A stretch of 64,000 nucleotides of DNA from an uncultured Fibrobacteraceae bacterium. Its GTDB lineage: Bacteria > Krumholzibacteriota > Krumholzibacteriia > LZORAL124-64-63. Shown piece after piece: positions 40,066-64,000 of the stretch. Below the pieces are notes generated by a model. It was not told where the DNA came from and did not search any database. It was given only the letters and a program-made list of their open reading frames with translations. Made by a program: the position numbers and the translations under genes. The stretch covers positions 5,005 to 69,004 of the forward strand of contig CAZGEC010000002.1 in the NCBI GenBank assembly GCA_964524645.1, written 5' to 3'. Each line of letters starts with the position of its first letter. Position 1 is the first letter of the stretch.

Positions 40066-40395
40066 AGCCCGCTCGCCGGTCCTCCCGCGTTGCAGAATGT
40101 TACGTCGGCGTTGAACCACCGAACTGAAAGAAACCCTTCACTGCCTGGCGATTCCCGCCCCGTGCCCCGTTCCGCCGCGGGATGTGTTACGGATTGCAAC
40201 AATGGGAATCAGCCGCCGCGCGACGGCGAGACGGGACGACGCCTCCAGCCCCGGCCGGTCTCCGAGCATGCAAGCAAGCTCCAGGCAAGTCGTTACATGA
40301 ATCGAGCCCCGGAGATCCGGCGCCGTGCGGCGGCCGACCCGGCCGGGCCCGAGACTTGCCCCTGTCCCCGGCGGATGTCGGCATGGACGTGGATC

Positions 40396-40818: not shown

Positions 40819-40858
40819 CAGGCGGCGGACAGCGGCACAACGGAGGGACGGAAGGCGC

Positions 40859-42370: not shown

Positions 42371-42380
42371 GAGGCCAGCG

Positions 42381-43478
42381 ATGATTCCTCACATTCTCTC
42401 GGACATGTTCATCGAGCTGAACCTGAGCACGGCCATCCAGGTCGTCGTCCTCGGGTTCATCGGCGGAATCCTGAGCGGCTTCATCGGGAGCGGAGGCGCC
42501 TTCTTCATGACCCCGGGCATGATGAACCTCGGGGTGCCGGGCGTCGTCGCGGTGGGGAGCAACATCACCCACAAGTTCGGCAAGGCGATGATGGGCTCCC
42601 GGATGCACGGCGAGCTGGGCAACGTGGACCGCAAGCTGGGCATCTTCCTGATCCTGACCTCCTTCGTGGGGATCCGGTTCGCGGTCTGGCTGAACACCAT
42701 GCTCTTCGAGGGCGGCACGGGCGGCCACGGCGAGGGGGGCAGCGCCGCCGCGGACCTCTACATCTCGCTGATCTTCGTCTGCATCCTGTCCCTGGTGGCC
42801 ATCTCCATGCTGCGGGACGCGCTCAGGGCCACCAAGGAGGACAGCGGCCCCTCCCAGCGGATCGCCGAGTATCTCTCCCGCCTCAAGCTGTTTCCGATGA
42901 TCCACTTCCCGGTGGCCGACGTGCGGGTCTCCCTCTGGGTGATCAGCGCGGTGGGCTTGGCCACGGGCTATCTCGCCGGCACGATCGGCGTCGGCGGCTT
43001 CATCGGGGTGCCGGCCATGATCTACGTCTTCGGCGTGCCCACCGCCGTGGCCGCGGGCACCGAGCTTTTCCTGGCCATGTTCATGGGAGCGTTCGGCGCC
43101 CTGAACTACGCCTTCCAGGGCTTCGTGGACCTCCGTCTCACCCTGCTCCTGTACCTGGGCTCCCTGGTCGGCATCTACATCGGGGCGTACGGGACGAAGG
43201 TCGTCAAGGAGATCATCATCCGCATCGTCACGGGAGTGATCATCATCCTCTGCGTCATCAGCCGCGCCATCGCCATACCCATGTACCTGAGGCAGCTCGG
43301 CTACGTGGAGATGAATCCCGAGTGGGACCGGTACTTCAACCAGGCCAGCAAGATCATGCTGTTCGCCGCTGGCATCTCGGGCTGCGCCATCATCCTGTGG
43401 AACGTGTACCGGGGCTACCAGCGGAGGAAGCAGGTGGCCTCGACGCTGAAGATCGCACGGGCCGAAACCGTCGCATGA
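42381..43478 (+). CDS. TauE/SafE (TSUP family) sulfite/anion exporter
   Basis: Two halves share the Gly-rich FIGSGGAFFMTPGM / IGVGGFIGVPAMIY motifs. Confidence 0.8.
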   Translation: MIPHILSDMFIELNLSTAIQVVVLGFIGGILSGFIGSGGAFFMTPGMMNLGVPGVVAVGSNITHKFGKAMMGSRMHGELGNVDRKLGIFLILTSFVGIRFAVWLNTMLFEGGTGGHGEGGSAAADLYISLIFVCILSLVAISMLRDALRATKEDSGPSQRIAEYLSRLKLFPMIHFPVADVRVSLWVISAVGLATGYLAGTIGVGGFIGVPAMIYVFGVPTAVAAGTELFLAMFMGAFGALNYAFQGFVDLRLTLLLYLGSLVGIYIGAYGTKVVKEIIIRIVTGVIIILCVISRAIAIPMYLRQLGYVEMNPEWDRYFNQASKIMLFAAGISGCAIILWNVYRGYQRRKQVASTLKIARAETVA

Positions 43479-43499
43479 CGTGATCAGGAGGCTCCTTCC

Positions 43500-43898
43500 A
43501 TGGACAAGGCGCTGAGAATCATGGTCGTGGACGACGAGTCGATCGTCGGCCGGCGTCTCAAGCCGGCGCTGGAGAAGTCGGGGTACCAGGTCGAGGTGTT
43601 CGAGGACGGCAAGAGCGCCATCGATCGGATCGCCCTGGAACCGTTCGACATCGTCGTCACGGACGTTCGCATGGACGAGATCGACGGCATGCAGGTGCTG
43701 CAGCAGGTCCTCACCAGCTCGCCCCGCACCAAGGTCATCATCATCACCGGCTATGCCACGGTGGAACTCGCGCGCGAGGCGCTGATCAAGGGGGCCTTCG
43801 ACTTCATCGCCAAGCCGTTCAAGCCGGACGATCTGCGCAACGTCATCGAGAAGGCCGCCCGCAAGCTCCGCGAGGAGCAGGAGTCCGGCGAGCGGTGA
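43500..43898 (+). CDS. single-domain response regulator (CheY-like receiver)
   Basis: Begins IMVVDDESIV and contains DIVVTDVRMDEIDG and KVIIITGYA. Confidence 0.85.
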   Translation: MDKALRIMVVDDESIVGRRLKPALEKSGYQVEVFEDGKSAIDRIALEPFDIVVTDVRMDEIDGMQVLQQVLTSSPRTKVIIITGYATVELAREALIKGAFDFIAKPFKPDDLRNVIEKAARKLREEQESGER

Positions 43899-43923
43899 AG
43901 CGGGCCGGGCCCGGGGAGGGCAG

Positions 43924-48035: not shown

Positions 48036-48108
48036 CCCCGGGCGCCGGAGTGTGCTATCCTGGCGCCCGTTCCCCAGGCAGATCCCTCAACACTGCGGCC
48101 GGGCGCCC

Positions 48109-51303: not shown

Positions 51304-51398
51304 CGCTCGGGAGGTGTCATGTCCATGGACCAGCTGCAGGTCGAGAGGACCGCCGGCATGGAGCCGGGTTCCTCAGCCGCCGAGGAGTTCGACTGATC

Positions 51399-54300
51399 GT
51401 GAGCGAACCGCGCTCGAGAAGGCCTTCCGCATCCGAGCCCGCCGCGGATCCCGTGGCGCAGGCCACGGCGGTCCAGCGCGAGGCCGCCTCCCCTGCGGCC
51501 TCCGTCGTGCTGCGCGCCGCCGCCGGCGCGGGCAAGACGAAGGTCCTGGTGGACCGCTTCGTGCGCCTCTGCCTGGCCGGCAGCCGGCCCAAGTCGATCC
51601 TGGCCGTGACCTTCACCAGGAAGGCGGCCGTGGAGATCAAGGACCGGCTGCTGCAGCAGACCCGGCTCTTCGCCTGCCTGACGGCAGCCGAGCTGGCGGA
51701 CGGGCTCCGGGAGCTGCTCGGCCGGGAGCCCACGCCGGCGGAGCGGCAGCGGGCGGCCCGGCTGCACGCCGAGGTGCTGGAGGATCTGGCGGGCCTGCAG
51801 ATCGGCACCATCCACGCCTTCTGCCAGCGGATCCTCGGCCGCATGGCCGCCGAGCTGGGCCTGGATCCGCACTTCCGCGTCCTGGAGGAGGAGGAGGCGC
51901 TGTGGGCCGAGGCCCTCGACCGACTGGAGAGGGAGGCGGCGGCCGACCCGCGGGAGCGCGACGCGCTGGCGGGCCTGGCCACGGCGCCCGATGCGGCCCG
52001 GCGGGAGCTGACGCGCCTGCGCCGCGACCGCGTGCATCTGGAGCGCTGGCTGGATCGTGTGCGCCGCGAGCGCGGAGCTGAACCGGCAGGGCCGGCCGAT
52101 CTGCTCACCGCCCGGCGGGCCCCGCTTCACGGGGAGCTGACGGCCGAGCTGCGGCAGCTGCTTTTCGTGGGGACGCCGCTGGACGGCGCCGCCGAGCCGG
52201 CGTTGCCGGATCTGCTGCCGCGGCTCCGGGAGGCCATCGAAGGGCTGGCCGGGGCCGGCCTCGAGAGCGTGCTGGCCGCCGAGTCCGCTGTCACCGCCGG
52301 CCTGCAGAAGCAGGCGGCGGAACTGCGCGAGGGGCTGACCGGGGTCCGGGCCGGGCTGCAGGATCTTCAGGATCTGGCTCCGGCCGCCGCGGCGGATCCC
52401 GCCGCCGCCGCGGAGCTGGAGACCGTGCTGGAGGATCTGCGGGGGGTCCTGCTGACCGGGCAGGGACAGCTCCGCAAGCTGCACGGCAAGAAGGAGACGG
52501 CGGCCGGCCGGCAGGCGACTTGGGCCGCCGCGGCGGCGCCGGTGCTGGGCCTGCTGCATCTGGCCGATCGCGTGACCATCTACCGCTTCGACAGCAAGCT
52601 GCTGCGCTTCGGCCTGCGGGCCCTGGACATCTACGCGGAGCTGAAGCGGCGCGATCGCTGCGTGGACTTCCAGGACCTGGAGCAGCTGGCCTGGGCGCTG
52701 CTGCGCAGTCCGGCGGGCCTGGCGGTCCAGTACCGCTTCGACGAGGCGGTGGACCACCTGCTGGTGGACGAGTTCCAGGACACCAACCGCAACCAGTGGG
52801 AGATCCTGCGCCCCTTCGCCGAGGAGTTCCTCGCCGGGGAGTCGGCCCGCGGGGTGCGGCGCACGGTCTTCCTGGTGGGAGACGTCAAGCAGTCCATCTA
52901 CGGCTTCCGCGGGGCCGAGCCCGCGCTGTTCGGCGAGGTGGCGCTCTGGCTGGAGCGGCAGGCCGGCGCGCCGCTCCTGAGCCTGCCCACCAACTTCCGC
53001 AGCCTGCCGGCCGTGGTGCAGTCCGTGGGCCGGCTGATGTCCTCCCCGCCCCTGGCTGACCTGCTGCCGCCCGGCGAGGCGGCGGCGGCGCGCCAGGTGG
53101 CGGCCCGCGGAGAGGCCGCGGGCGAGGTGGCGATCCTGCCGGTGCGGCGGGCGGACGAGGGCGGCGCCGCCGACCACCTGGCCGCCGCGGCCGCGGTGCG
53201 CATCGTCCGCCACCTGCTGCGCTGCGGCCGCGTGTGGGCGGACGGAGCCCCCCTGAGCTGCGGCGACATCCTGGTGCTGTGCCGCAGCCGCAACCGCATC
53301 ACCATCTACGAGCAGGCATTCCGCCAAGCGGGCATCCCGATTGCGCCGGCCGGACGCGGCCTGCTGGCCCGCGGCCGGGAGGTGAAGGATCTGCTGCTCC
53401 TGCTGCGCTGGCTGAGCTTCCCGGGCGACGATGCTGCGCTGGCCGGCGTGCTGCGCGCCCCGATCCTCCGCGTGGACGAGGCCACCCTGCAGCGCGCTCT
53501 CGCCCGGCTCGACGGGGACCGGGAGCGAAGCCTCTGGCACGTCCTCCAGCAACATGCTGGAGACCTGGGCCTTGCGGCCGAGGTCGAGCTGCTGGGGAGC
53601 TGGCTGGGCAGAAGCCCGTTTCTGAGCTGCCACGATCTGCTCCGCTGGATCTTCCGCACCGGCCATCTGCCGGAACGCTACGGCGCGGCCCTGGGCGAGC
53701 AGGCTCGTTACAACCTGCTGCGCCTGCACGATCTCGCGCTTGCTCCCGAACAGGGCGAGGCTCCCACCCTGCGCGAGTTCGCCGAGCTGATCCGGCGGGC
53801 CGGCGAGACGGCGGCGGAGGAGGAGGCCACGCCTCCGGAGCGCGGTTCGGGCCGCGTGCGCCTGATGACGGTGCACGGCGCTAAGGGGCTCGAGGCTCCC
53901 GTGGTCCTGCTGGTGGATGCGGCCGCCCCCCTGCGGGAGGACGTCGATCGCCTCGTCCTGGCCCCGCCGCAGGCGGACGGTCCTCTGCTCTATGGGGTGC
54001 GCCGACGCCACCTGCAAGGGTCGGAGGAGGTGGCCGGAGCCGCCGCGCCGCCGGCCACCGACCCGCTGCGGGCGGCGGGCGAGCACGAGCTGCGGCAGCA
54101 GCGCCGCGAGGAGGCCGACATCCTCTACGTGGCCATGACCCGGGCCAGGGACGCCCTCTACGTGGTGGGGGCGGAGCCGGCCCGCAAGGGGGGGAGGGAG
54201 AGCTACCAGGACTGGCTCGAGGCGGCTGCGGCCGCTGACCTGGCGGGCGGCGGGTCAGCCGCCGCGGCGCCCTATGCCCTGGCGGATCCCGCCTGGCTGG

Positions 54301-55082
54301 CCGGGGAGGCGGCGGAGGAGGCGACCGGGGCGGCCCTGCCCGTCCCGGCAGCGGCGGAGGGGAGCTGCCGCGCCTGGGAAGCCCCGTCCCTGCCGCCGCG
54401 CATCCAGCTCGTGCAGCCCTCGGCGCACGACGAGACCCTGCGGGCGGCCGCCGAGACCGGCGAGGAGGATGACGAGGACGGCGGCGGCGAGGACGCGGAG
54501 GCCGTGGCCGCCGGCGTGGCCGCCGCGGGCCGGGCCCGCAGCCAGGCCCTCGCCCATGGCGAGGCCGTGCACCTTTGGCTGCAGGTGGCGGCCGAGCAGG
54601 GCGAGCTGTCCGTGGAGAATCGGCCGCGGGATCCACACGCGCGTGCAGCCTGGGAAGAGGCCCGCAGGGTCTACGCGGAGTGCACGTCCGGCAAGCTGGC
54701 CTGGATCTTCCAGCCCGAGTGCGAGGGCGGCATGGGCTACGCCGAGGTCCCGATCCTGCACCACCTCCCGCCTCCGGAGGGCGCGACGGGTGCGGCGGAG
54801 CGGCGGGTCGTCGGCGTGATCGACCGGTTGGTCGTCTTCCCCGGGCGGGCAGAGATCGTGGACTACAAGTCCGACCGGGACGCGGCCACAGCCGCCGGTC
54901 GCGACCGCCTGCGGGAACGCTACGGCCCGCAGCTGGCGGCCTACCGGGCGGCCGTCGCCGCCCTCCTACCCGGGCACGAGGTGCGCGCCCACCTGCTCCT
55001 GACCGCACCCGCGGTCCCGCAGGCGGCGGGTCGGCTGCTCACGCTGCCCGCGGACGCGGGTTCGAGGCCGCTGGACGATTAG
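51399..55082 (+). CDS. addA: AddA-like UvrD/REP superfamily-1 helicase with a C-terminal PD-(D/E)XK nuclease
   Basis: Walker A is AAGAGKTKVL. UvrD motifs are VTFTRKAA, LLVDEFQDTN and VGDVKQSIYGFRGA. The C-terminal nuclease motif is GVIDRLVVFPGRAEIVDYKSD. Confidence 0.8.
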   Translation: MSEPRSRRPSASEPAADPVAQATAVQREAASPAASVVLRAAAGAGKTKVLVDRFVRLCLAGSRPKSILAVTFTRKAAVEIKDRLLQQTRLFACLTAAELADGLRELLGREPTPAERQRAARLHAEVLEDLAGLQIGTIHAFCQRILGRMAAELGLDPHFRVLEEEEALWAEALDRLEREAAADPRERDALAGLATAPDAARRELTRLRRDRVHLERWLDRVRRERGAEPAGPADLLTARRAPLHGELTAELRQLLFVGTPLDGAAEPALPDLLPRLREAIEGLAGAGLESVLAAESAVTAGLQKQAAELREGLTGVRAGLQDLQDLAPAAAADPAAAAELETVLEDLRGVLLTGQGQLRKLHGKKETAAGRQATWAAAAAPVLGLLHLADRVTIYRFDSKLLRFGLRALDIYAELKRRDRCVDFQDLEQLAWALLRSPAGLAVQYRFDEAVDHLLVDEFQDTNRNQWEILRPFAEEFLAGESARGVRRTVFLVGDVKQSIYGFRGAEPALFGEVALWLERQAGAPLLSLPTNFRSLPAVVQSVGRLMSSPPLADLLPPGEAAAARQVAARGEAAGEVAILPVRRADEGGAADHLAAAAAVRIVRHLLRCGRVWADGAPLSCGDILVLCRSRNRITIYEQAFRQAGIPIAPAGRGLLARGREVKDLLLLLRWLSFPGDDAALAGVLRAPILRVDEATLQRALARLDGDRERSLWHVLQQHAGDLGLAAEVELLGSWLGRSPFLSCHDLLRWIFRTGHLPERYGAALGEQARYNLLRLHDLALAPEQGEAPTLREFAELIRRAGETAAEEEATPPERGSGRVRLMTVHGAKGLEAPVVLLVDAAAPLREDVDRLVLAPPQADGPLLYGVRRRHLQGSEEVAGAAAPPATDPLRAAGEHELRQQRREEADILYVAMTRARDALYVVGAEPARKGGRESYQDWLEAAAAADLAGGGSAAAAPYALADPAWLAGEAAEEATGAALPVPAAAEGSCRAWEAPSLPPRIQLVQPSAHDETLRAAAETGEEDDEDGGGEDAEAVAAGVAAAGRARSQALAHGEAVHLWLQVAAEQGELSVENRPRDPHARAAWEEARRVYAECTSGKLAWIFQPECEGGMGYAEVPILHHLPPPEGATGAAERRVVGVIDRLVVFPGRAEIVDYKSDRDAATAAGRDRLRERYGPQLAAYRAAVAALLPGHEVRAHLLLTAPAVPQAAGRLLTLPADAGSRPLDD

Positions 55083-55087: not shown

Positions 55088-56779
55088 CTAGCGGATCAGA
55101 CCGAGCTTGCAGGCCGGGCCGACCGCCCGCCCGTCCAGCAGGAGGCGGCCGCAGTAGACGCCGCTCGGCAGCTCGCGGCCCGCGGCGTCCCGGCCCTCCC
55201 AGGTGATTCCCTGCTCGCCCGCCGGCCGCTCTCCGCCTTCCAGGCGTGCGACGAGCCGCCCGCGCGCGTCGTACAGCCGCAGGCTCACCTCTCCCGGACG
55301 GGCCAGGACGAAGCGGATCTCCGTGCGCGGGTTGAAGGGATTGGGCCGCCCGCCCAGCAGGGTCGCGGTCCAGGCGCTGCGATCGGTCTGTGCGGGAGTC
55401 CGGGCGTTCGCCACGTTCGAGAGGGCCGAGACGTGGCCCGGCTCGCCGTAGGCGCCCCACTCGTCGAGCACCCGGAGGGCGAAGTAGTAGCGCATACCAG
55501 GCTCCAAGCCGCTCGCCCGTGCCTTCTGCCAGCTCCCGGGTGCGCCAGGCGGCGGTACATCGCTCACCGGCGTGGCCGTGGCGAAGCTGGACGCATCGAG
55601 TGGCTCGGTGGCCCGGCGGAGATCGTAGGCCGCTGCCCTGCCCTCGGTGCCGTCGTCGCCCGTGGCCGTCCAGCGGAGCAGCAGCGTGGTGCTGTCGGCA
55701 TCGTAGACCGCGAGATCGAGCACGGGTGCGGGTGGAATGCTGTCCGGTTCCGCGAGGGCCCGGAAGGCGTCGAGCCGGCCGCCCGTGATCACCAGGCCCG
55801 CCAGCTCGGGCGTCGCAACGGTGCCGGCAAGGATGCGGGCCTTGACCGCTCCGGCGTCGAGCGCCGGGAAGCGCCCCCGCACCAGAGCGGCCACGCCGGC
55901 CACCATGGGCGTGGCAAACGAGGTGCCCAAGACGTAGTCGAAGCCGCCGCTGCCCGCCGGCACCAGGATGCGCACCCCCGGTGCGGCCAGATGCACGCTC
56001 TCGTCGCCGTAGTTGAAGATCTGCTGGCCGTCGGGTTTCAGACCGGTCACGCAGATGATGTTGGGCAGGTCGTAGCAGCACGGGTACTCCGGCGCGGCGT
56101 CCACGTCCCGGCCGTCGTTTCCCGCGGAGCAAACGATCAAGAGATCGTGCTCCAGGGCGTAGAGGCAGGCCGCGTAAAGGTCGTCGAGATAGTGCTGGGG
56201 GGCGGAGTACGGGATGTCCCAGCTGACGTTGATGACCTCGGCGCCCGCGTCGGCCGCCGCGTAGATGGTCAGGATCCGCGAATCGATGAGTGACGAGCTG
56301 CGCACCGGCAGCAGCGAGACCTCCCAGTTGATGCCGGTCATGCCAAGCCCGTTGTGGCCGACGGCGCCGATGATGCCCGCGATGGCCGTGCCGTGATGGA
56401 CGCTCTTGGGGGTGGGCTCGTTCGCCAGCTCGTAGCCCTTCCCGCCGCGGAGGGGAGGAATGACGATCGCCGGCAGCAGGTTGGCGGCCAGGTCCGGGTG
56501 CCCGGCGAGATCGAAGTCGCTGTCGCTGATCGCCACGATGACGGAGCGCGAGCCCGTCGAGACGTTCCAGGCGGCCGGGGCCGCGATGTCGATGCCGGCG
56601 ATCGCCGGCAAAGGGCCGGCGTTGTCCCCGGTGTTCTGCAGCGACCACTGGTCGGGAAAGCGGGGATCGTCCGGCAGGATGGCCGGAGCCAGCGCGGCGA
56701 TGGCGAGCAGGACGGCCGCAGGGATCGCCAGGAGCCGCCGCCGGGCGGTCGAAACGGATACGCGTCGAGAAGCCATCAC
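55088..56779 (-). CDS. S8 (subtilisin-like) serine peptidase with a T9SS C-terminal sorting domain
   Basis: The His motif is HGTAIAGIIGA and the Ser motif is GTSFATPMVAGVAAL. A signal peptide is present. The CTD is NPFNPRTEIRF...LYDARGRLVARL...SGVYCGRL. Confidence 0.85.
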   Translation of the reverse strand: MMASRRVSVSTARRRLLAIPAAVLLAIAALAPAILPDDPRFPDQWSLQNTGDNAGPLPAIAGIDIAAPAAWNVSTGSRSVIVAISDSDFDLAGHPDLAANLLPAIVIPPLRGGKGYELANEPTPKSVHHGTAIAGIIGAVGHNGLGMTGINWEVSLLPVRSSSLIDSRILTIYAAADAGAEVINVSWDIPYSAPQHYLDDLYAACLYALEHDLLIVCSAGNDGRDVDAAPEYPCCYDLPNIICVTGLKPDGQQIFNYGDESVHLAAPGVRILVPAGSGGFDYVLGTSFATPMVAGVAALVRGRFPALDAGAVKARILAGTVATPELAGLVITGGRLDAFRALAEPDSIPPAPVLDLAVYDADSTTLLLRWTATGDDGTEGRAAAYDLRRATEPLDASSFATATPVSDVPPPGAPGSWQKARASGLEPGMRYYFALRVLDEWGAYGEPGHVSALSNVANARTPAQTDRSAWTATLLGGRPNPFNPRTEIRFVLARPGEVSLRLYDARGRLVARLEGGERPAGEQGITWEGRDAAGRELPSGVYCGRLLLDGRAVGPACKLGLIR

Positions 56780-56944
56780 TGCCCTCCTTGTGGTTGTGCC
56801 CCACGATTCTAACGGCCGCGTGGTGCCGATACAAGCTGCTCGCGGTGCCGCTCACGGACCACCGTGGCGCCGGCGGTTCAGGTGTGCGATCCTTGGTGGG
56901 GGAATCCGGCGGTGCGCAAGGCGCCGGATCGCCGGGAGGAGCCC

Positions 56945-57685
56945 GTGAACGGGATCATCTTCAACCTGCAGCGCTTCTGCATTCACGACGGGCCCGGCAT
57001 CCGCACGACCGTCTTCCTGAAGGGCTGCCCCCTGAAATGCCCGTGGTGCCACAATCCCGAGGGCCGCCTCGCGGACTTCCCCGAGGATCGCGAGGTGAGT
57101 GTCGGCGACCTGCTGCAGGAGGTCGAGTGCGACCGCCCCTTCTACGAGGAGACCGGCGGCGGCATCACCTTCTCCGGCGGCGAGCCCTTGGTCCAGGGCG
57201 ACTTCCTGCTCGAGTGCCTGGACGCCTGCCGAAAGCGCGGCCTGCGGACGGCCGTGGACACCTGCGGCTACGCTCCGCCGGAGCTGATGCAGCAAGTGGC
57301 TGCGCGCACCGACCTGGTGCTCTTCGACCTGAAGCTGACGGACGAGGTGCGGCACCGCGAGCTGACCGGGGCGCCCCTGGCGCCGATCCTGGCGAATCTG
57401 CGCGAGCTTGACGTCCGTGGCCGGCGGATCTGGATCCGGCTGCCGCTGGTCCCCGGGATCAACGACCGGCCCGCGGATCTGGAGGCGGTCGGAGCCCTGG
57501 TCGCCTCGTTGGAGGCAACCCGCCAGGTGCACCTGCTCCCCTTCCACAAGCTGGCCGCCGCCAAGTATCATCGTCTGGGCCGGGACTGGCCGCCGGCGGG
57601 TCTCGACAGCCGGGTGCCGGCCGACCTGCAGGAGGCGGCAGCGCGCCTGCGGCGATACGGGCTGAAGGTCGTCATCGGCGGCTGA
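56945..57685 (+). CDS. glycyl-radical enzyme activating protein (radical SAM, PflA family)
   Basis: Begins VNGIIFNLQRFCIHDGPGIRTTVFLKGCPLKCPWCHNPE, which carries the CX3CX2C motif. GTG 56945 follows GGGAGGAG. The track ORF starts earlier, at 56864. Confidence 0.85.
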   Translation: MNGIIFNLQRFCIHDGPGIRTTVFLKGCPLKCPWCHNPEGRLADFPEDREVSVGDLLQEVECDRPFYEETGGGITFSGGEPLVQGDFLLECLDACRKRGLRTAVDTCGYAPPELMQQVAARTDLVLFDLKLTDEVRHRELTGAPLAPILANLRELDVRGRRIWIRLPLVPGINDRPADLEAVGALVASLEATRQVHLLPFHKLAAAKYHRLGRDWPPAGLDSRVPADLQEAAARLRRYGLKVVIGG

Positions 57686-57760
57686 GCCGCCGCGGGAATC
57701 GTTGCCCGGGCGGCGGCCGGGCCGCGATCGAGAACACGATCCGAACCGGAGGCAGGGCGC

Positions 57761-60136
57761 TTGAACGAGCGGGTCCGCAAGCTGAGAGAGCGCAGCCTGG
57801 CCGGGCGGCCCCGCCTGTCCGTGGAGCGGGCCCGCTTGCTGACCGCGTTCTACCGCGAGAACCTGGGCCGCCACGGCGCGCCGGTCCTGCGCGCGCTGGC
57901 CTTCCGGCATCTCTGCGAGCACAAGACCATCACCATCGAGCCGGGCGAGCTGATCGTGGGCCAGCGGGGTCCGGCGCCCCTGGCCGTGCCCACGTATCCC
58001 GAGCTGACCTGCCACGGCCGCGAGGACCTGGAGCAGCTCGACCGCCGCGAGAAGACGAGCTACGCCGTCAGCGCCGAGGACCTCCGCCTCTACGAGGCGG
58101 AGATCATCCCCTACTGGCGGGGACGCAGCCTGCGCGACCGCATCTTCGCCGTTCTGCCGCCGGAGTGGCACGCCGCCTACGAGGCCGGCGTCTTCACCGA
58201 GTTCATGGAGCAGCGAGCGCCCGGCCACACCGTCGCCGACGGCAAGATCTACCGCCGCGGTCTGCGCGATCTGCAGGCCGACCTCGCCGCCGTCCGCGCG
58301 CGGATCGACCTGCTCGCCGACCCGCTGGCCGGTGCGCGGCTGGAGCAGCTGCAGGCCATGGAGATCGCCGCCGACGCGGCCATCCTCTTCGCGGAGCGGC
58401 ATGCCGCGCTCGCCGAGACGCTGGCCGAGCGCGAGCAGGATCCGCAGCGCCGGCAAGAGCTGGCCAGGATCGCCGCGATCTGCCGGCGGGTGCCGGCCGC
58501 CGCGCCGCGCGACTTTCACGAGGCGCTGCAGATGTACTGGTTCTGCCACCTCGGGGTCATCACGGAGCTGAACGGCTGGGATGCCTACAGCCCCGGGCAC
58601 CTGGACCAGCATCTCGAGCCGTTCTACCGGCGGGGCCTGGCCGACGGCAGCCTCAGCTTTGAAGCGGCGCGCGAGCTGCTGCAGTGCTTCTGCCTGAAGT
58701 TCAACGACCATCCCGCCCCGCCCAAGGTGGGCGTCACCGCGGCGGAGAGCGGCACCTACACCGACTTCGCCAACATCAACCTGGGCGGCCTGCATCGCGA
58801 CGGCAGCGACGGCACGAACGAGGTCTCGTACCTGCTGCTGGAGGTGATCGACGAGCTGCACGTCCTGCAGCCCAGCAGCAACGTGCAGATCTCGCGCCGC
58901 ACGCCGGACCGCTTCCTGCGGGCGGCGCTGGAGGTGATCCGCAAGGGCTACGGCTACCCGTCGGTCTTCAACGCCGACGGGGTGGTCGAGCTGCTCGTGC
59001 GCCAGGGCAAGAGCGTGGAGGACGCCCGCGAGGGGGGGACCAGCGGCTGCGTCGAGGCCGGGGCCTTCGGCAAGGAGGCGTACATCCTGACCGGCTACTT
59101 CAACCTGCCCAAGGTGCTCGAGCTGGCCCTGCACAACGGTCGCGATCCGCGCACGGGCCGCCAGCTCGGCCCCCGCACCGGCGCTCCCGCCTCCTTCGAG
59201 AACTTCGCGGCGCTCTGGAGCGCGTTCACCGGGCAGCTCCGTCACTTCGTCGATCTGAAGGTCCGGGGCAACCACCTCGTCGAGCGGCTCTACGCCGAGC
59301 AGATGCCGGCTCCCTTCCTCTCCCTGCTCACCGACGACTGCATCGCCAGCGGCCGGGACTACAACGCCGGCGGCGCGCGCTACGACACCTCCTACATCCA
59401 GGGGGTGGGGATCGGCACGATCACCGACAGCCTGGCCGCTCTCCGGCACCTCGTCGACGAGGAGCGGGCGCTCGATCTGCCCGGCTTCGTCGCGGCCCTC
59501 GATGCCGACTTCGCCGGCCAGGAAGAGCTGCGCCACCGCCTGCGCAACGGCGACGGCGGACCGCTCCTGCCCAAGTGGGGCAACGACGACGACCGGGCCG
59601 ACGAGCTGATGCGCCGCGTGTTTGCGGCCTTCTACGAGGCGGTGGAGGGGCGGCCCACGGCGCGCGGCGGCGTCTACCACATCGACATGCTGCCGACGAC
59701 CTGCCACATCCACTTCGGCCAGGTCACCGGGGCCACGCCCGACGGCCGCCAGGCGGGCGCGCCGCTCTCGGAGGGCATCTCGCCCGTGCAGGGCATGGAT
59801 CGCCGCGGGCCCACGGCGGTGCTGCTCTCGGCAGCCAAGATGGATCACGTCAAGACCGGCGGCACGCTGCTCAACATGAAGTTCACGCCGCAGGTGCTGC
59901 AGGACGAGCGCAGCCTGGAGGGGGTCGCCGGCCTGGTGCGCACCTACTTCCGGCTGGGTGGGCACCACGTCCAGTTCAACGTGGTGAGCGCCGAGACGCT
60001 GCGGGCCGCCCAGCGCGATCCCGAGTCCCATCGCGACCTCATCGTGCGCGTGGCCGGCTACAGCGACTACTTCTGCAACCTGTCCCGGGCGCTGCAGGAC
60101 GAGATCATCACCCGCACGGAGCAGGAGCTGCACTGA
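57761..60136 (+). CDS. glycyl radical enzyme, PFL2/glycerol-dehydratase-like family (substrate unknown)
   Basis: The C-terminal glycyl-radical loop is RVAGYSDYF. The catalytic Cys-Glu is GTSGCVEAG. The protein is ~790 aa, typical of PFL2 enzymes, and has a TTG start. Confidence 0.85.
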   Translation: MNERVRKLRERSLAGRPRLSVERARLLTAFYRENLGRHGAPVLRALAFRHLCEHKTITIEPGELIVGQRGPAPLAVPTYPELTCHGREDLEQLDRREKTSYAVSAEDLRLYEAEIIPYWRGRSLRDRIFAVLPPEWHAAYEAGVFTEFMEQRAPGHTVADGKIYRRGLRDLQADLAAVRARIDLLADPLAGARLEQLQAMEIAADAAILFAERHAALAETLAEREQDPQRRQELARIAAICRRVPAAAPRDFHEALQMYWFCHLGVITELNGWDAYSPGHLDQHLEPFYRRGLADGSLSFEAARELLQCFCLKFNDHPAPPKVGVTAAESGTYTDFANINLGGLHRDGSDGTNEVSYLLLEVIDELHVLQPSSNVQISRRTPDRFLRAALEVIRKGYGYPSVFNADGVVELLVRQGKSVEDAREGGTSGCVEAGAFGKEAYILTGYFNLPKVLELALHNGRDPRTGRQLGPRTGAPASFENFAALWSAFTGQLRHFVDLKVRGNHLVERLYAEQMPAPFLSLLTDDCIASGRDYNAGGARYDTSYIQGVGIGTITDSLAALRHLVDEERALDLPGFVAALDADFAGQEELRHRLRNGDGGPLLPKWGNDDDRADELMRRVFAAFYEAVEGRPTARGGVYHIDMLPTTCHIHFGQVTGATPDGRQAGAPLSEGISPVQGMDRRGPTAVLLSAAKMDHVKTGGTLLNMKFTPQVLQDERSLEGVAGLVRTYFRLGGHHVQFNVVSAETLRAAQRDPESHRDLIVRVAGYSDYFCNLSRALQDEIITRTEQELH

Positions 60137-60140
60137 GCCC

Positions 60141-60998
60141 ATGTCCGCGCTGATCGTCATCCTCGCCGTCCTGGCAGTCGTCTACCTGTTGATCTGCCTG
60201 CTGATGGTGATTCTCCAGGGGCGCTTCGTGTTCTTCCCGACGCGCGAGCTGGCGGCGACGCCCGCCGAGCGCGGACTGTCCTACCGGGACGTCGAGCTGC
60301 GGGCGAGCGACCACGTGCGGCTGCACGCCTGGTTCGTGCCGCGCGAGGGCGCCCGGGGCGTCCTGCTCTTCTGCCACGGCAACGCGGGCAACATCGGCGA
60401 CCGGCTGGACTCGCTGCAGCTCTTCCACGAGCTGGGTCTCGCGGTGCTGATCTTCGACTACCGCGGCTACGGGCGCAGCGCGGGCCGGCCGAGCGAGGCG
60501 GGGCTCTACCGCGACGCCCGTGCGGCCTGGGACCACCTGGTGGATCAGGAGGGATTCCCCGCGGAGCGCATCGTCGTCTTCGGCCGCTCCCTGGGTGGAG
60601 CCGTCGCGGTGCAGCTGGCCTCGCAGGCGGATCCCGGCGGCCTGATCGTCGAGTCGAGCTTCACCTCGGCGGCGGAGCTGGGCGCGCGGCTCTATCCGTG
60701 GCTGCCGGTGCGCCAGCTGGCGCGCATCCGCTTCGACGCCGCCGCACGCCTGCAGGACGTCAGCTGCCGCCAGCTGTTCGTGCACAGCCTGGACGACGAG
60801 GTCGTCCCCTACGGACTGGGCCTGCGGCTCTACCGCCAGGCCCACCTGCCGAAGCAGTTCCTGCGGATCCGGGGCGGACACGGCGACGGCTTCCTGGTCT
60901 CCGGGCAGCGCTACCGGTCGGGCCTGGCGGCCTTCCTGGCCTCGCTGGGCCTGGCCGCCGACCAGGCCTTGCCGCCGGCCTCCGAGCCGGAGACCTAG
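60141..60998 (+). CDS. alpha/beta hydrolase (N-terminal membrane anchor)
   Basis: The oxyanion region is LLFCHGNAGN. The nucleophile elbow is GRSLGG. It starts 5 bp after the GRE stop. Confidence 0.75.
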   Translation: MSALIVILAVLAVVYLLICLLMVILQGRFVFFPTRELAATPAERGLSYRDVELRASDHVRLHAWFVPREGARGVLLFCHGNAGNIGDRLDSLQLFHELGLAVLIFDYRGYGRSAGRPSEAGLYRDARAAWDHLVDQEGFPAERIVVFGRSLGGAVAVQLASQADPGGLIVESSFTSAAELGARLYPWLPVRQLARIRFDAAARLQDVSCRQLFVHSLDDEVVPYGLGLRLYRQAHLPKQFLRIRGGHGDGFLVSGQRYRSGLAAFLASLGLAADQALPPASEPET

Positions 60999-61077
60999 AA
61001 ACGAGGAAGCCGCGCGCTGCGCGGCTTCCCCGGCGTGGGATCGATTCCGAACGCTTCCCTCGCTGCCTTTCCGGACT

Positions 61078-62163
61078 CTAGCTGCCGCCGCCGCCCATGC
61101 CGCCGCCGTGCTGGCCGCCGGAGCCGCCCTGGTGATCGCCCGGGCCGCCGCCGGCGTCGTCGATGGGATTGTGGCCGCCGGGCTCGTGATCCTCGCCCGG
61201 GCCCATCCAGCCGGCCTGGTACATGCGCTGCGCCATCTCCTGCCAGGCCAGGCCCTCACCGAGACACCGTTCCAGGTCGCCGGCGATCTCGTCCACGGGG
61301 CCGCCGTTCTGGTGGTTGGCCAGGACCATGAAGCGCAGCTGGCGCATCTCCTGGGCCGTGTAACCCTGCTGCAGGGCCTCGCCGGCCAGGCGGACGGCGC
61401 GCGCACGCTGCAGGCCCTCGGCGTTCAGCTGGACGGCGGTCTCGGTGGCCGCGGCCAGCTCCTCCACGCTGCAGCTCCCATCGCGCAGGCGCAGGCGGGC
61501 CTGTTGGCGGAGCTGCTCCAGGTCGCCCTCGTTCAGGCCGGACCACATGTTCTGGGCCATCTGCCGGACCAGCTGGCGCGTGCGGACCGGGTCGCCGGTC
61601 GGCTCTACGCCGTCCTGGACGGCCTGATTCATGACGCGGCTGGCGGTGCGCACGTGGGCTTCCATGCGCAGGGCCGCCTGCTCCAGGGCCTGCTCCGGAG
61701 CGCCCTTCATCAGTCCTTCCTGGATCTTCGCGAGCACCGGCTCGGTGGGCAGGCCCTCGCGGGCCGCCGCGAGCACGCGGTGCTGCAGGCGGAGCCGGGT
61801 GCGCGCCTGCAGGGGATCGCCCGTCTCGCCGGCGGCGAACAGGGTCCTCAGCTCGCGCTCGCCCAGGCCCAGCTGCAGGCAGGCGTCCAGGTTCTCGACC
61901 ATCTGGCCGCGCTCCTCCGCGGAGAGCCCGGGTGCCGTGTCGATACGATCACGGAGCTGCTGGCGCAGCTGCAGGCGATCGGGATCGCCCTGCTGATCGC
62001 CGCTGCCGTCGTGCAGCCGCAGCTGATCCTGCACCTGGTCCCGCGTCCGGTCCTGGTCCTGAGCCAGCGCGGTCGCCGTGGCGAAGATCAGCAGCAGGGC
62101 CAGGGTCGTCAGGACGACCGCGCCCCTGCCTCGGCTCGGGAAGATTCGCCTTGTGGTCCGCAT
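61078..62163 (-). CDS. secreted helical hypothetical protein with a His/Gly-rich C-terminal tail
   Basis: The signal peptide is MRTTRRIFPSRGRGAVVLTTLALLLIFATATALA. The tail is GGHNPIDDAGGGPGDHQGGSGGQHGGGMGGGGS. The start was set at Met 62163. Confidence 0.45.
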   Translation of the reverse strand: MRTTRRIFPSRGRGAVVLTTLALLLIFATATALAQDQDRTRDQVQDQLRLHDGSGDQQGDPDRLQLRQQLRDRIDTAPGLSAEERGQMVENLDACLQLGLGERELRTLFAAGETGDPLQARTRLRLQHRVLAAAREGLPTEPVLAKIQEGLMKGAPEQALEQAALRMEAHVRTASRVMNQAVQDGVEPTGDPVRTRQLVRQMAQNMWSGLNEGDLEQLRQQARLRLRDGSCSVEELAAATETAVQLNAEGLQRARAVRLAGEALQQGYTAQEMRQLRFMVLANHQNGGPVDEIAGDLERCLGEGLAWQEMAQRMYQAGWMGPGEDHEPGGHNPIDDAGGGPGDHQGGSGGQHGGGMGGGGS

Positions 62164-62254
62164 GTCCTTGTCTCCTGTCTCGTGACCGGGACGGTGCGTG
62201 GGCTCTACGCTCCGTCCGGATTCCACCACCTGAGACGCCGCGGCCGCTCCGAGG

Positions 62255-63511
62255 TTACCGGCCGGCGGGCAAGACCCGCAGCAGGCCGTTGCGGCCGCCG
62301 AAACCGTCGTCTACCGTGACGGTCGCCTCGCTCGGCGTCACCGTCCGGCCGTCGATCCAGTAGGCATACTGGTGGGATCCCGCCGGGAGGGGCAATTCCA
62401 GCTCCCACCAGCCGTCGCCGGCTGGCCGGAGCCCGTTGGCAGCGGGATCCCAGCCATTGAAATCTCCCACCAGGGCCACCCGCGTGGCCCCGGGTGCGTG
62501 GACACGGAAGCGGATCGGCACGCCCGCGCGCGGCCCGTCCGGAGCGGCCGGCAGGGAGCGGGGCGCCGGGGGGTCCAGGGCGACGCCGCGGCCGCCCGGA
62601 CCGGGCCGCCAGGTGAGGGCGAGGGCGACGCGGTGGATGTCCTGGTTGTCCGCGTCGGGCCAGACGTAGCGGGCGAAGCCGTAGCGCAGCGCCAGGGAGA
62701 GGCTCGGCCCCAGCTCCTGCTCCAGGCCCACGCCCAGCTGCCCGTAGTGATCGTGGTCCTCCGCCGCCGGGCGGCCCGCGAAGTCGCGCTCCTGCCAGAC
62801 GCCGCCCAGGCTCAGCCAGAGGGCGGGCGCCGCCCGCAGCCAGGCTGTTCCCTGCACCAACCAGCCGCGGCTGTCGTACCAGGGATCGCGGGCCGCGGTG
62901 CCGAGGCGGCTGGCCTCCGCCTGCAGGACGAGCCCCGAGGCGGGGGCGAGCGTTCCCCGCCCGCCCAGCCGCCAGGCCGCCTCGCTGTAGATGCCGACGA
63001 GCCCCAGGTCGTCCGGGGCCAGCAGGTCGGGGTAGCGCCGTCCCTGCAGGCCGCCGAGCAGCTCGAGCCGCCAGCGGGGGTGCGCGTACCCGAGAGCCGC
63101 CTCGCCGCCGCCGGTGTAGCGCCGCACGCTGGCGCGCTCGGAGTCGTCGAAGATCGCGCCGCCGCCCCGCAGGCGCAGCTGCCAGGGACCGCTGCCGCGC
63201 AGCAGCAGGTCGGCCGAGACCTGCCCCGAGAGCAGGCGCCGCTCCAGCGTGTTGAAGAACTGCTCGAGGGTCGTGTACGCCGACAGCCGCAGGATCGAGC
63301 GTGCGCCCAGCCGCCGGCCGAGGCTCAGGCCCGGGCTGAAGTCGAGGAAGGCGCCGCCAGATACGGTCTCGCGCGCCAGGTCCGGGTCCAGGACCAGATC
63401 GCTCTCGTGGCCCGTGGCCACGGTCAGCCAGGGCTCCCACACCCAGGCGTGCGCGGGGGAGGCCGCGGCGCCCCCGACCACAACCAGGATGCAGAACGAG
63501 CCCACGAGCAT
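62255..63511 (-). CDS. secreted/outer-membrane protein with a C-terminal CBM48/E-set (glycogen-binding-like) domain
   Basis: The signal peptide is MLVGSFCILVVVGGAAASPAHA. The C-terminal domain is VPIRFRVHAPGATRVALVGDFNGWD...YAYWIDG. The start was set at Met 63511. Confidence 0.5.
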   Translation of the reverse strand: MLVGSFCILVVVGGAAASPAHAWVWEPWLTVATGHESDLVLDPDLARETVSGGAFLDFSPGLSLGRRLGARSILRLSAYTTLEQFFNTLERRLLSGQVSADLLLRGSGPWQLRLRGGGAIFDDSERASVRRYTGGGEAALGYAHPRWRLELLGGLQGRRYPDLLAPDDLGLVGIYSEAAWRLGGRGTLAPASGLVLQAEASRLGTAARDPWYDSRGWLVQGTAWLRAAPALWLSLGGVWQERDFAGRPAAEDHDHYGQLGVGLEQELGPSLSLALRYGFARYVWPDADNQDIHRVALALTWRPGPGGRGVALDPPAPRSLPAAPDGPRAGVPIRFRVHAPGATRVALVGDFNGWDPAANGLRPAGDGWWELELPLPAGSHQYAYWIDGRTVTPSEATVTVDDGFGGRNGLLRVLPAGR

Positions 63512-63539
63512 CCTGACCGCGGCGCGGGGGCGTCCGCGA

Positions 63540-64000
63540 CTACAGCGTGAGGTCGAGGACCGCATTCTGCCGGCCAAAACCATCATCCCTTGTCTGCAGG
63601 GCGAGGGGATCGGTCCGCCAGGTGCGGCCGTCCTCCACGAACATGTACTCGTAGGTGTCGGCGGGCAGCAGCAGCAAGGCCGTCCAGGCTCCATCGTGCT
63701 TCTCCATGGGTGTCCGGCGTGGATCCCAGTCGTTGAAGGTTCCGGCCACGCTCACCTGCCCGACTTCTCCGGCCGGCGGGACGTAGACCAGGCGCACCAG
63801 GCGCAGGCCCGCGCTGCCGCCGGCGAACTGCGCGGCATCCGCGGGGACGAAGGCCACCGGCGCACCGCCCGGCCCCTGGCCGCCGGCGGCCAGGTCCCGG
63901 CCGCTTCCTGCGGTCCCTTGCAGGACACCGGGCCCCACGCGGGCGGCCAGCCAGCCCAGCCCGAAGACGACGGCCAGCGAGGCCGCCAGGGCCAGCGCCC
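63540..64000 (-). CDS. CBM48/E-set domain protein, C-terminal part; the 5' end lies beyond the window
   Basis: Contains VRLVYVPPAGEVGQVSVAGTFNDWD...YEYMFVEDG. The reading frame stays open to the window edge. Confidence 0.5.
   Translation of the reverse strand, partial: ALALAASLAVVFGLGWLAARVGPGVLQGTAGSGRDLAAGGQGPGGAPVAFVPADAAQFAGGSAGLRLVRLVYVPPAGEVGQVSVAGTFNDWDPRRTPMEKHDGAWTALLLLPADTYEYMFVEDGRTWRTDPLALQTRDDGFGRQNAVLDLTL

What the first reader, a model, noticed from the sequence alone, without database searches (positions are those of the whole stretch)
56945..60998. Orphan PFL2-family glycyl radical enzyme and activase pair with a coupled alpha/beta hydrolase; substrate unknown
The activase has the CX3CX2C radical-SAM motif. 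The ~790-aa GRE has the RVAGYS glycyl loop and a GCVE Cys-Glu catalytic dyad. This is typical of dehydratase/lyase-type PFL2 enzymes (glycerol dehydratase, choline TMA-lyase, hydroxyproline dehydratase, isethionate sulfite-lyase) rather than pyruvate formate-lyase. None of the usual partner genes (BMC shell, P5C reductase, 1,3-PD dehydrogenase, sulfite reductase) is adjacent. Instead a membrane-anchored alpha/beta hydrolase follows 5 bp downstream. A TauE sulfite exporter exists elsewhere in the window (42381..43478) but is not linked. The enzyme also implies an anaerobic lifestyle.
Basis: partly seen in the sequence, partly recalled or inferred. Interest (0 to 1): 0.55.

Follow-up and report, generated by a model that had tools for sequence, protein, structure and literature searches.

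The report
Hydroxyproline dehydratase (HypD) with short activase
The "orphan" glycyl radical enzyme is a clear ortholog of the well-studied trans-4-hydroxy-L-proline dehydratase HypD, so its substrate is not unknown; the only unusual points are an activase that has lost its extra iron-sulfur domain and a neighbouring hydrolase found beside hypD only in this lineage.

Summary
All three genes are real and lie at the stated coordinates: activase 56945-57685, glycyl radical enzyme (GRE) 57761-60136, alpha/beta hydrolase 60141-60998.

The GRE is not an orphan.
- It passes NCBI's equivalog model for trans-4-hydroxy-L-proline dehydratase (1184 bits, cutoff 1100).
- It is 53.8% identical over 781 residues to the crystallised C. 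difficile HypD. It scores 988 bits there, against 495 for the next structure.
- It keeps all 15 published catalytic and substrate-binding residues.

A missing adjacent P5C reductase is normal for hypD. It is reported for most hypD genomes, and I found no conserved partner beyond the activase in 80 related loci.

The hydrolase is next to hypD only in the window and one 92%-identical relative. It is absent from 80 other hypD loci, and none of 80 loci holding its own relatives carries hypD. Functional coupling is therefore unsupported.

One mildly unusual feature is the 246-aa activase. It derives from HypD-type activases (56-61% identical, versus 32% to PflA) but lacks the ~54-residue ferredoxin-like insert with 8 cysteines. 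Only 2 of 71 hypD-adjacent activases and 5 of 119 homolog clusters lack it. GRM5 activases are a published precedent.

Verdict: an ordinary new member of a known family; low interest.

The parts
56945..57685 (+). HypD-activating enzyme. A radical-SAM GRE activase of 246 aa, in a short form that lacks the ferredoxin-like auxiliary-cluster insert.
   Evidence: Pfam Radical_SAM + Fer4_12. TIGR02494 GRE-activase subfamily 265 bits against a cutoff of 174. It sits directly upstream of HypD, as in 72 of 80 related loci. It is 56-61% identical to insert-bearing HypD-adjacent activases and 32% to E. coli PflA. The spacer between CX3CX2C and GGxTxSGGE is 36 aa with 1 Cys, against 70-115 aa with 4-10 Cys in 69 of 71 activases.
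57026..57049 (+). CX3CX2C motif (CPLKCPWC, aa 28-35) that ligates the radical-SAM [4Fe-4S] cluster.
   Evidence: Motif located. It aligns with the cluster motif of PflA structure 3c8f.
57761..60136 (+). trans-4-hydroxy-L-proline dehydratase HypD, a glycyl radical enzyme of 791 aa.
   Evidence: NF043068 glycl_HYPD equivalog 1184 bits against a cutoff of 1100. PDB 6vxc/6vxe HypD 988 bits against 495 for the next structure. 53.8% identity over 781 aa, with 15 of 15 active-site residues conserved.
59045..59056 (+). Cys loop GCVE. Cys430 carries the thiyl radical and Glu432 is the Glu of the CXE motif. These equal Cys434 and Glu436 of C. difficile HypD.
   Evidence: Roles are from PMC7077986.
60047..60064 (+). 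Glycyl radical loop RVAGYS. Gly766 equals Gly765 of C. difficile HypD.
   Evidence: Pfam Gly_radical 123 bits.
60141..60998 (+). Membrane-anchored alpha/beta serine hydrolase of 285 aa, with HGNAGN and GRSLGG motifs. It is adjacent and probably co-transcribed, but a functional link to HypD is not shown.
   Evidence: Pfam Hydrolase_4 / Abhydrolase_1. No NCBIfam model reaches its cutoff. The best PDB match is a MARTX alpha/beta-hydrolase domain, 60 bits. It follows hypD only in the window and L081. It is absent from 80 hypD loci. None of 80 loci with its relatives carries hypD.

Best explanation
This is a two-gene anaerobic hydroxyproline-utilisation module, hypD plus its activase, in an uncultivated high-GC bacterium.

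Proposed mechanism:
1. The radical-SAM activase reductively cleaves S-adenosylmethionine on its CX3CX2C [4Fe-4S] cluster. [quoted passage not shown]
2. During turnover the radical passes to Cys430. The thiyl radical abstracts the C5 hydrogen of trans-4-hydroxy-L-proline.
3. The C4 hydroxyl leaves as water, helped by Asp274, His156 and Glu432.
4. The hydrogen returns to C4, giving (S)-delta1-pyrroline-5-carboxylate (P5C).
5. P5C is then either reduced to proline or oxidised to glutamate by enzymes encoded elsewhere in the genome.

Shown here: family membership, conserved catalytic and substrate-binding residues, and the conserved activase-hypD gene pair.

Inferred by homology with the C. difficile enzyme (PMC7077986): the reaction itself and the fate of P5C.

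The activase is a derivative of HypD-type activases that has lost the ferredoxin-like insert. It presumably takes its electron directly from flavodoxin or ferredoxin, as PflA does.

The downstream alpha/beta hydrolase is most likely an unrelated membrane serine hydrolase that sits in the same transcription unit in this lineage only.
For: Family assignment:
- The GRE exceeds the curated cutoff of the NCBIfam equivalog for trans-4-hydroxy-L-proline dehydratase (1184 bits against 1100).
- Every other GRE equivalog falls far below its cutoff: HpsG 532/1000, CutC 462/1050, PFL 121/994.
- Among solved structures, HypD 6vxc scores 988 bits. The next are glycerol dehydratase 495, HpyG (8id1) 433, HpzG (8iof) 432, HplG (7vua) 377 and isethionate sulfite-lyase IslA (7kq3) 378.

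Active site:
- 53.8% identity over 781 aligned residues.
- F152, R156, H160, W277, D278, K326, S334, D339, F340, C434, V435, E436, Y450, T645 and G765 of C. difficile HypD are all identical.
- The catalytic and binding residues among these were shown by mutagenesis to matter, and D278, D339, S334, Y450 and T645 are described as HypD-specific (PMC7077986).
- Fourteen of the 15 positions are invariant in all 86 sequences of the 58-92% identity clade; V435 is Ile in four.

Gene pair:
- An activase sits directly upstream in 72 of 80 related genome loci.

Missing proC:
- Lack of an adjacent proC is the reported norm (PMC6219649).
- Clustering of flanking ORFs across about 83 loci found no partner family in more than 11 loci.

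Short activase:
- It is present and 86.6% identical in an independent metagenome assembly, L081.
- Codon changes are mostly synonymous.
- It is colinear with PflA structure 3c8f over residues 9-243.
Against: - No enzymatic data exist for this protein or for any member of its environmental clade. The closest characterised enzyme is 54% identical.
- The activase fails the HypD-activase equivalog cutoff (245 bits against 425), because the ferredoxin-like insert is missing.
- For 4-hydroxyphenylacetate decarboxylase, that domain was reported to be needed for a lasting glycyl radical (cited in PMC13450708). Efficient activation here is therefore assumed, not shown.
- No P5C-consuming enzyme and no dedicated Hyp transporter was identified in the 64 kb window.
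Confidence: 0.92

Rival explanations
1. The enzyme is a HypD-like eliminase with a different but related substrate. Candidates are another hydroxyproline stereoisomer or an N-methylated hydroxyproline, as for HpyG, HpzG or HplG.
For: Several GREs acting on hydroxyproline derivatives are now known (PMC13450708). The window enzyme is only 54% identical to the one characterised HypD.
Against: HpyG (8id1), HpzG (8iof) and HplG (7vua) score 433, 432 and 377 bits, against 988 for HypD. All carboxylate-, amine- and hydroxyl-contacting residues of HypD are identical and are invariant across 86 clade members. The score is above the HypD equivalog cutoff.
Confidence: 0.04
2. This is an orphan PFL2-family GRE of unknown substrate, and the alpha/beta hydrolase 4 nt downstream is its functional partner, defining a new pathway.
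For: The hydrolase start lies 4 nt after the GRE stop, with no terminator-like site between them. The three-gene order is kept in L081. The hydrolase shows mostly synonymous change.
Against: The substrate is predictable from orthology. L081 is a 92% relative in which the whole neighbourhood is syntenic, so its conservation says little. The hydrolase is absent from 80 other hypD loci. The next-closest relative (75% identity, L082) has an AAA_14/DUF4143 (predicted ATPase) gene downstream instead. Eighty loci with hydrolase relatives at 45-55% identity carry no hypD and share no conserved neighbour.
Confidence: 0.03
3. The GRE is HypD, but the hydrolase is a real accessory in this lineage. It would be a membrane-anchored peptidase or esterase that frees hydroxyproline or proline from imported peptides, feeding HypD. 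The secreted S8 protease encoded divergently upstream would act together with it.
For: The hydrolase is probably co-transcribed (4-nt gap; no terminator). It hits Pfam Hydrolase_4, named 'serine aminopeptidase S33', the clan that contains prolyl aminopeptidases. A secreted S8 subtilase lies divergently upstream at 55088-56779, and other secreted proteases are in the window.
Against: Proline iminopeptidase models score far below their cutoffs: NF045948 28.9 bits against 500, and TIGR01250 19.1 against 167.65. The best structural relative by sequence is a MARTX toxin alpha/beta-hydrolase domain, not a peptidase. There is no co-occurrence with hypD outside the lineage. The hydrolase family has no conserved neighbours at all, which is typical of a stand-alone housekeeping gene. 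Matches to the S8 protein in four hypD loci cover only its C-terminal ~75-90 residues, the region of its FlgD Ig-like domain.
Confidence: 0.08

Closest known systems
Clostridioides difficile HypD
   Same: Same length class (791 against 789 aa) and colinear over 781 residues at 53.8% identity. The Gly loop, the GCVE Cys loop and all 15 listed active-site residues are identical. A dedicated activase is encoded directly upstream.
   Different: There is no adjacent proC (P5C reductase) and no prd proline-reductase context in the window, so there is no evidence here that it is tied to Stickland fermentation. The host is an uncultivated, ~70% GC environmental bacterium. The activase lacks the ferredoxin-like insert.
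Environmental HypD clade in MAGs labelled Acidobacteriota/Thermoanaerobaculia, Planctomycetota, Eiseniibacteriota, Krumholzibacteriia and others
   Same: 58-72% identity, identical active-site residues, and the activase-hypD gene order.
   Different: Sixty-nine of 71 activases in this set carry the 70-115-aa Cys-rich spacer (4-10 Cys), which the window's activase lacks. None has the alpha/beta hydrolase downstream.
E. coli PflA (pyruvate formate-lyase activating enzyme; PDB 3C8F/3CB8)
   Same: Same minimal architecture: a radical-SAM domain only, 246 against 245-246 aa, colinear over residues 9-243, with no auxiliary-cluster insert.
   Different: Only 32% identical, whereas HypD-type activases are 56-61% identical once their insert is ignored. 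It scores below the PFLA equivalog cutoff, 214 against 232. It is encoded next to HypD, not next to a PFL.
GRM5 microcompartment GRE activases (Ferlez et al. 2019, PMC6325248)
   Same: A published case of activases for non-PFL GREs that lack the ferredoxin-like insertion.
   Different: They belong to a different GRE class and to a microcompartment context. No sequence comparison was made here.

Membership tests
HypD (trans-4-hydroxy-L-proline dehydratase, NCBIfam NF043068) | Score at or above the curated equivalog cutoff over the full length | tested here: met
   1184 bits against a cutoff of 1100, covering residues 2-789 of 791 and model positions 1-783 of 784.
HypD (trans-4-hydroxy-L-proline dehydratase, NCBIfam NF043068) | GRE core: a C-terminal glycyl radical loop (RVxG) and a Cys loop with the CXE motif | tested here: met
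   RVAGYS at aa 763-768 and GCVE at aa 429-432. Pfam PFL-like + Gly_radical.
HypD (trans-4-hydroxy-L-proline dehydratase, NCBIfam NF043068) | HypD-specific substrate-binding and catalytic residues: His160, Asp278, Asp339, Ser334, Phe340, Tyr450, Thr645, plus Phe152, Arg156, Trp277 and Lys326 | tested here: met
   All are identical in the alignment to 6vxc. Residue roles come from PMC7077986. They are invariant in 86 clade members.
HypD (trans-4-hydroxy-L-proline dehydratase, NCBIfam NF043068) | Closer to characterised HypD than to any other characterised GRE | tested here: met
   988 bits to HypD against 495 or less for glycerol dehydratase, CutC, propanediol dehydratase (5i2a), HpyG, HpzG, HplG, IslA and PFL. 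No explicit tree was built.
HypD (trans-4-hydroxy-L-proline dehydratase, NCBIfam NF043068) | Catalyses Hyp to P5C + H2O after activation | not testable with these tools
   This needs anaerobic biochemistry.
HypD activase (NCBIfam NF043069 T4HPD_activ_SAM) | Score at or above the equivalog cutoff, with full-length architecture including the ferredoxin-like insert | tested here: not met
   244.8 bits against a cutoff of 425, matched in two stretches. The ~54-aa insert with 8 Cys is absent. It works like a HypD activase by position and descent, but it is an atypical short form.
GRE activating enzymes (TIGR02494 PFLE_PFLC subfamily) | Subfamily cutoff, CX3CX2C cluster motif, and the N-terminal DGPGIR glycine-rich motif | tested here: met
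   265.1 bits against a cutoff of 174.35. CPLKCPWC at aa 28-35. DGPGIR is visible in the sequence.
Pyruvate formate-lyase (TIGR01255) and PflA (TIGR02493) | Equivalog cutoffs | tested here: not met
   GRE: 121 bits against 994. Activase: 214.1 against 231.75.
Choline TMA-lyase CutC, sulfopropanediol dehydratases HpsG/HpfG, and the aromatic decarboxylases (indoleacetate, 4-hydroxyphenylacetate) | Equivalog cutoffs | tested here: not met
   CutC 462/1050, HpsG 532/1000, HpfG 451/1000, indoleacetate decarboxylase 375/1100, 4-hydroxyphenylacetate decarboxylase 313/1150.
Proline iminopeptidase / S33 prolyl aminopeptidase (considered for the downstream hydrolase) | NCBIfam cutoffs for NF045948 and TIGR01250 | tested here: not met
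   28.9 bits against 500, and 19.1 against 167.65. Only the generic alpha/beta-hydrolase Pfam families are met.

The most novel reading that the evidence does not exclude
The 246-aa activase is a naturally minimal HypD activase. It descends from insert-bearing HypD activases, has cleanly lost the ferredoxin-like domain with its two auxiliary-cluster motifs, and still activates HypD.

Similar insert-less forms occur in at least three apparently separate lineages:
- the window group, P0126/P0127/P0128;
- P0196;
- P0244, which lies next to a bona fide HypD in a Thermoanaerobaculales MAG.

If they are functional, these pairs would be natural experiments showing that the auxiliary clusters, whose role is still unknown, are dispensable for an eliminase-type GRE.
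Probability: 0.6. Interest if true: 0.3.

Novelty: new member of a known kind. Interest (0 to 1): 0.12.

Why it matters
The result removes a false lead. The enzyme's substrate can be predicted with high confidence, and NCBI's HypD equivalog model already recognises this enzyme.

It adds one more uncultivated, high-GC, apparently proteolytic lineage to the long list of anaerobes that can dehydrate hydroxyproline. That fits the published view that HypD is widespread beyond the gut.

The one point a GRE specialist might use is the set of natural HypD/activase pairs in which the activase has no ferredoxin-like domain. The function of that domain is described as unknown in a 2026 review (PMC13450708). 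Matched short and long activases at 56-61% identity would make a clean comparison. Because GRM5 activases already lack the insert (PMC6325248), this is an incremental observation.

Tried and rejected
- **Regulatory RNA or terminators in the locus.** There is no Rfam match at E <= 0.1 in 56600-61300 and no terminator-like site. There is one weak promoter-like site inside the activase gene. The GC-rich hairpin in the 75-nt activase-hypD spacer folds no better than shuffles (z = -0.87).
- **Conserved partners of hypD.** All-against-all clustering of flanking ORFs in about 83 loci found nothing beyond the activase in more than 11 loci. By eye, the 11-locus family is an ABC transporter and a 7-locus family is a GntR-type regulator. 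Several other clusters looked by eye like spurious antisense ORFs of high-GC DNA.
- **Hydrolase linkage.** tblastn of the hydrolase against 80 hypD loci gave no hit. HypD against 80 hydrolase loci gave no hit. The hydrolase family has no conserved neighbour.
- **Hydrolase as proline iminopeptidase.** Rejected on NCBIfam scores.
- **Taxonomy.** The FtsH search gave no named relative above 69% identity. Labels were mixed (Deferribacteres, Desulfobacterales, KSB1), so the phylum stays undetermined.
- **Extending beyond the window.** Exact-sequence look-ups of P0001, P0121 and P0126 were not on record. The hydrolase look-up returned only a 2.4 kb contig. The fate of P5C (proC, P5C dehydrogenase, prd) therefore could not be checked in the rest of the genome.
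- **Structure prediction.** Not run. With 54% identity to a substrate-bound crystal structure and identical active-site residues, it would add nothing.

Full report
**1. Observation**

- a 246-aa radical-SAM protein, 56945-57685, GTG start;
- a 791-aa glycyl radical enzyme, 57761-60136, TTG start, preceded by a GGAGG ribosome-binding site;
- a 285-aa alpha/beta hydrolase, 60141-60998, whose ATG lies 4 nt after the GRE stop codon.

Exact copies of all three products, with these lengths, exist in the public protein collection.

Pfam assigns Radical_SAM + Fer4_12 to the first, PFL-like (715 bits) + Gly_radical (123 bits) to the second, and Hydrolase_4 / Abhydrolase_1 to the third.

The quoted motifs are present: CPLKCPWC in the activase, GCVE and RVAGYS in the GRE. 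The hydrolase has a hydrophobic N-terminus and a GRSLGG nucleophile elbow.

**2. What the GRE is**

The protein scores 1184 bits against NCBIfam NF043068, the equivalog model for trans-4-hydroxy-L-proline dehydratase. That is above the curated cutoff of 1100. Every other GRE equivalog is far below its cutoff: HpsG 532/1000, CutC 462/1050, HpfG 451/1000, PFL 121/994.

Against all PDB chains, the best match is C. difficile HypD (6VXC/6VXE) at 988 bits. Next come:
- glycerol dehydratase, 495;
- HpyG (8ID1), 433;
- HpzG (8IOF), 432;
- isethionate sulfite-lyase IslA (7KQ3), 378;
- HplG (7VUA), 377.

I took the functionally important residues of HypD from Backman et al. 2020 (PMC7077986) and mapped them through the alignment. 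Identity is 53.8% over 781 aligned positions. Phe152, Arg156, His160, Trp277, Asp278, Lys326, Ser334, Asp339, Phe340, Cys434, Val435, Glu436, Tyr450, Thr645 and Gly765 are all identical.

That paper describes Asp278, Asp339, Ser334, Tyr450 and Thr645 as conserved in HypD. [quoted passage not shown] The match is therefore specific.

That is what the data show.

**3. Relatives and context**

The protein search returned the full 8000 scored candidates at E <= 1e-50, and the 120 best listed are all full-length. A scan of one genome per species returned 80 loci at 58-72% identity. The MAGs are labelled Acidobacteriota/Thermoanaerobaculia, Planctomycetota, Eiseniibacteriota, Krumholzibacteriia, Verrucomicrobiota, Chloroflexota, Bacillota and others.

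In an alignment of 86 clade members, 14 of the 15 active-site positions are invariant, and Val435 is Ile in four. The whole clade is HypD.

An activase lies directly upstream in 72 of 80 loci. Beyond that, clustering of all flanking ORFs found no family shared by more than 11 loci.

This agrees with Huang et al. 2018 (PMC6219649). [quoted passage not shown] The absence of proC, which I confirmed across the window by Pfam scans of the high-GC3 ORFs, is therefore ordinary and not a sign of an orphan enzyme.

**4. The alpha/beta hydrolase**

It matches only generic alpha/beta-hydrolase families. It reaches no NCBIfam cutoff; the proline iminopeptidase model gives 28.9 bits against 500. Its best PDB match is a MARTX toxin alpha/beta-hydrolase domain, at 60 bits over about 100 residues. 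One source names a cluster member 'FrsA (DUF1100 family)'.

The activase-hypD-hydrolase order recurs in L081, a JGI metagenome contig. There HypD is 92% identical and the downstream unknown gene and CBM48 genes are also syntenic. That is shared ancestry, not independent evidence.

Other tests of the linkage:
- The next relative (75% identity, L082) has an AAA_14/DUF4143 (predicted ATPase) gene downstream instead.
- None of the 80 genome loci has the hydrolase within 8 kb.
- None of 80 metagenome loci carrying 45-55% relatives of the hydrolase has hypD.
- Those hydrolase loci share no conserved neighbour at all.

The 4-nt gap and the lack of a terminator-like site make co-transcription likely. 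Functional coupling remains unsupported. I give an accessory, Hyp-releasing role about 8%.

**5. The activase: the one unusual feature**

In 69 of 71 hypD-adjacent activases, the stretch between CX3CX2C and the GGxTxSGGE motif is 70-115 residues long with 4-10 cysteines, usually 8. That is the ferredoxin-like insert. In the window and L081 the stretch is 36 residues with 0-1 cysteine.

With the insert columns ignored, the window protein is 56-61% identical to those long activases and only 32% to E. coli PflA. It is nevertheless colinear with PflA structure 3C8F over residues 9-243. It is thus a HypD-type activase that lost the insert, not a recruited PflA.

This also explains why it fails the HypD-activase equivalog cutoff (245 bits against 425) while passing the GRE-activase subfamily cutoff (265 against 174).

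The short form is not an assembly artefact. It is 86.6% identical in L081, and the differences are mostly synonymous: 42 synonymous against 33 nonsynonymous codons.

Of the top 120 homolog clusters, 119 could be classified: 5 are short and 114 long. P0126, P0127 and P0128 group together. P0196 and P0244 are each closest to long forms, which suggests at least three separate losses. This rests on BLAST partners, not on a tree.

P0244 sits directly upstream of a 784-aa GRE in a Thermoanaerobaculales MAG. That GRE is 67% identical to the window HypD and keeps all 15 residues.

A 2026 review states that the vast majority of GRE activases carry this domain, that only the PFL and class III RNR activases consist of the radical-SAM domain alone, and that the domain's function is unknown (PMC13450708). 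Ferlez et al. 2019 note that GRM5 activases also lack it (PMC6325248). The feature is rare but not unprecedented.

**6. Mechanism**

Inferred by homology:
1. The activase cleaves SAM reductively and installs a radical on Gly766.
2. Cys430 relays the radical and abstracts the C5 hydrogen of Hyp.
3. Water leaves from C4 with help from Asp274, His156 and Glu432.
4. The hydrogen returns to C4 and P5C is released (PMC7077986).

What happens to P5C is unknown here.

The surroundings suggest a proteolytic lifestyle that could supply Hyp-containing peptides. This is circumstantial. The relevant genes are:
- a divergently transcribed secreted S8 subtilase with a FlgD Ig-like tail (55088-56779);
- a C25 gingipain-like peptidase (20362-24168);
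- a protein with a Por_Secre_tail (secretion-system C-terminal sorting) domain (24427-26580);
- a sodium:alanine symporter (16283-17803).

**7. Other checks**

- There is no Rfam match in the locus. The spacer hairpin between the activase and hypD is not significant.
- The host could not be placed. FtsH has no named relative above 69% identity.
- Look-ups aimed at reaching beyond the window failed.

**8. Verdict**

The eliminase-type classification was right. The claim of an orphan enzyme with unknown substrate is wrong: this is a HypD ortholog with its activase, a new member of a known and already widely distributed family.

The hydrolase is a lineage-specific neighbour. The insert-less activase is a minor variant that could be useful for studying the auxiliary-cluster domain. 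Interest is low, at 0.12.

Noticed in passing
window 28848-28936 (+), with ORFs 28877-31519, 31200-32276 and 32174-33664: A TPP riboswitch (Rfam RF00059, 71.3 bits against a gathering score of 54.3) precedes a TonB-dependent receptor, a thiamin pyrophosphokinase and a sodium:solute symporter. This looks like a riboswitch-controlled thiamine uptake and salvage operon.
   Followed up: partly
window 55088-56779 (-), 20362-24168 (-), 24427-26580 (-): Several large secreted proteins carry a C-terminal FlgD Ig-like domain: an S8 subtilase divergent from the activase, a C25 gingipain-like peptidase, and a protein that also has a Por_Secre_tail (secretion-system C-terminal sorting) domain. This suggests a proteolytic organism that exports proteins bearing C-terminal sorting domains. 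tblastn matches to the C-terminal ~75-90 residues of the S8 protein, where its FlgD Ig-like domain lies, also occur in hypD loci L007, L022, L031 and L039.
   Followed up: partly
L085:5001-5795 and 5779-8133; also proteins P0128 and P0196: Other insert-less, 251-272-aa HypD-type activases exist. One sits directly upstream of a bona fide HypD in a Thermoanaerobaculales MAG. P0196 and P0244 are each closest to long-form activases, which suggests repeated independent loss of the ferredoxin-like insert.
   Followed up: partly
window 57686-57760: The activase-hypD spacer is 75 nt in the window but only 16 nt in the 92% relative L081. The extra ~59 nt form a GC-rich hairpin, GCCGCCGC...GCGGCGGC. Its folding energy is not better than shuffles (z = -0.87), and there is no Rfam match.
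   Followed up: yes
window 61078-62229 (-): A 383-aa predicted protein has no Pfam match and ends in a Gly-rich tail (GGGPGDHQGGSGGQHGGGMGGGGS). Unannotated genes of 361-363 aa occupy the same position in L081 and L166, though I did not compare the sequences. In the window and L081 it is followed by CBM48-domain proteins at 62255-63998.
   Followed up: no
window 47674-55082 (+): Two very large ORFs, about 75% GC, encode an AddB-like PD-(D/E)XK nuclease and an AddA-like UvrD helicase-nuclease. They lie immediately upstream of the S8 peptidase.
   Followed up: no
window 38386-48035 (+): The TauE/SafE-family permease (42357-43478) sits in a co-directional cluster. The cluster holds a sigma-54 activator/response regulator, a Usp-domain protein, a cytidylate-kinase-like protein, a stand-alone receiver protein, a PPDK_N/PEP-utilizer protein and a HAMP histidine kinase. 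It is unrelated to the GRE.
   Followed up: no
window about 17880-19100: This stretch has lower GC (0.64 for 18001-20000) and no ORF passing my GC3 filter. It contains the tail of the long ORF 16363-18654, which by eye looks methyltransferase-like, and a small ORF at 18712-19077 with CxxC pairs and a very acidic tail. Neither was tested.
   Followed up: no
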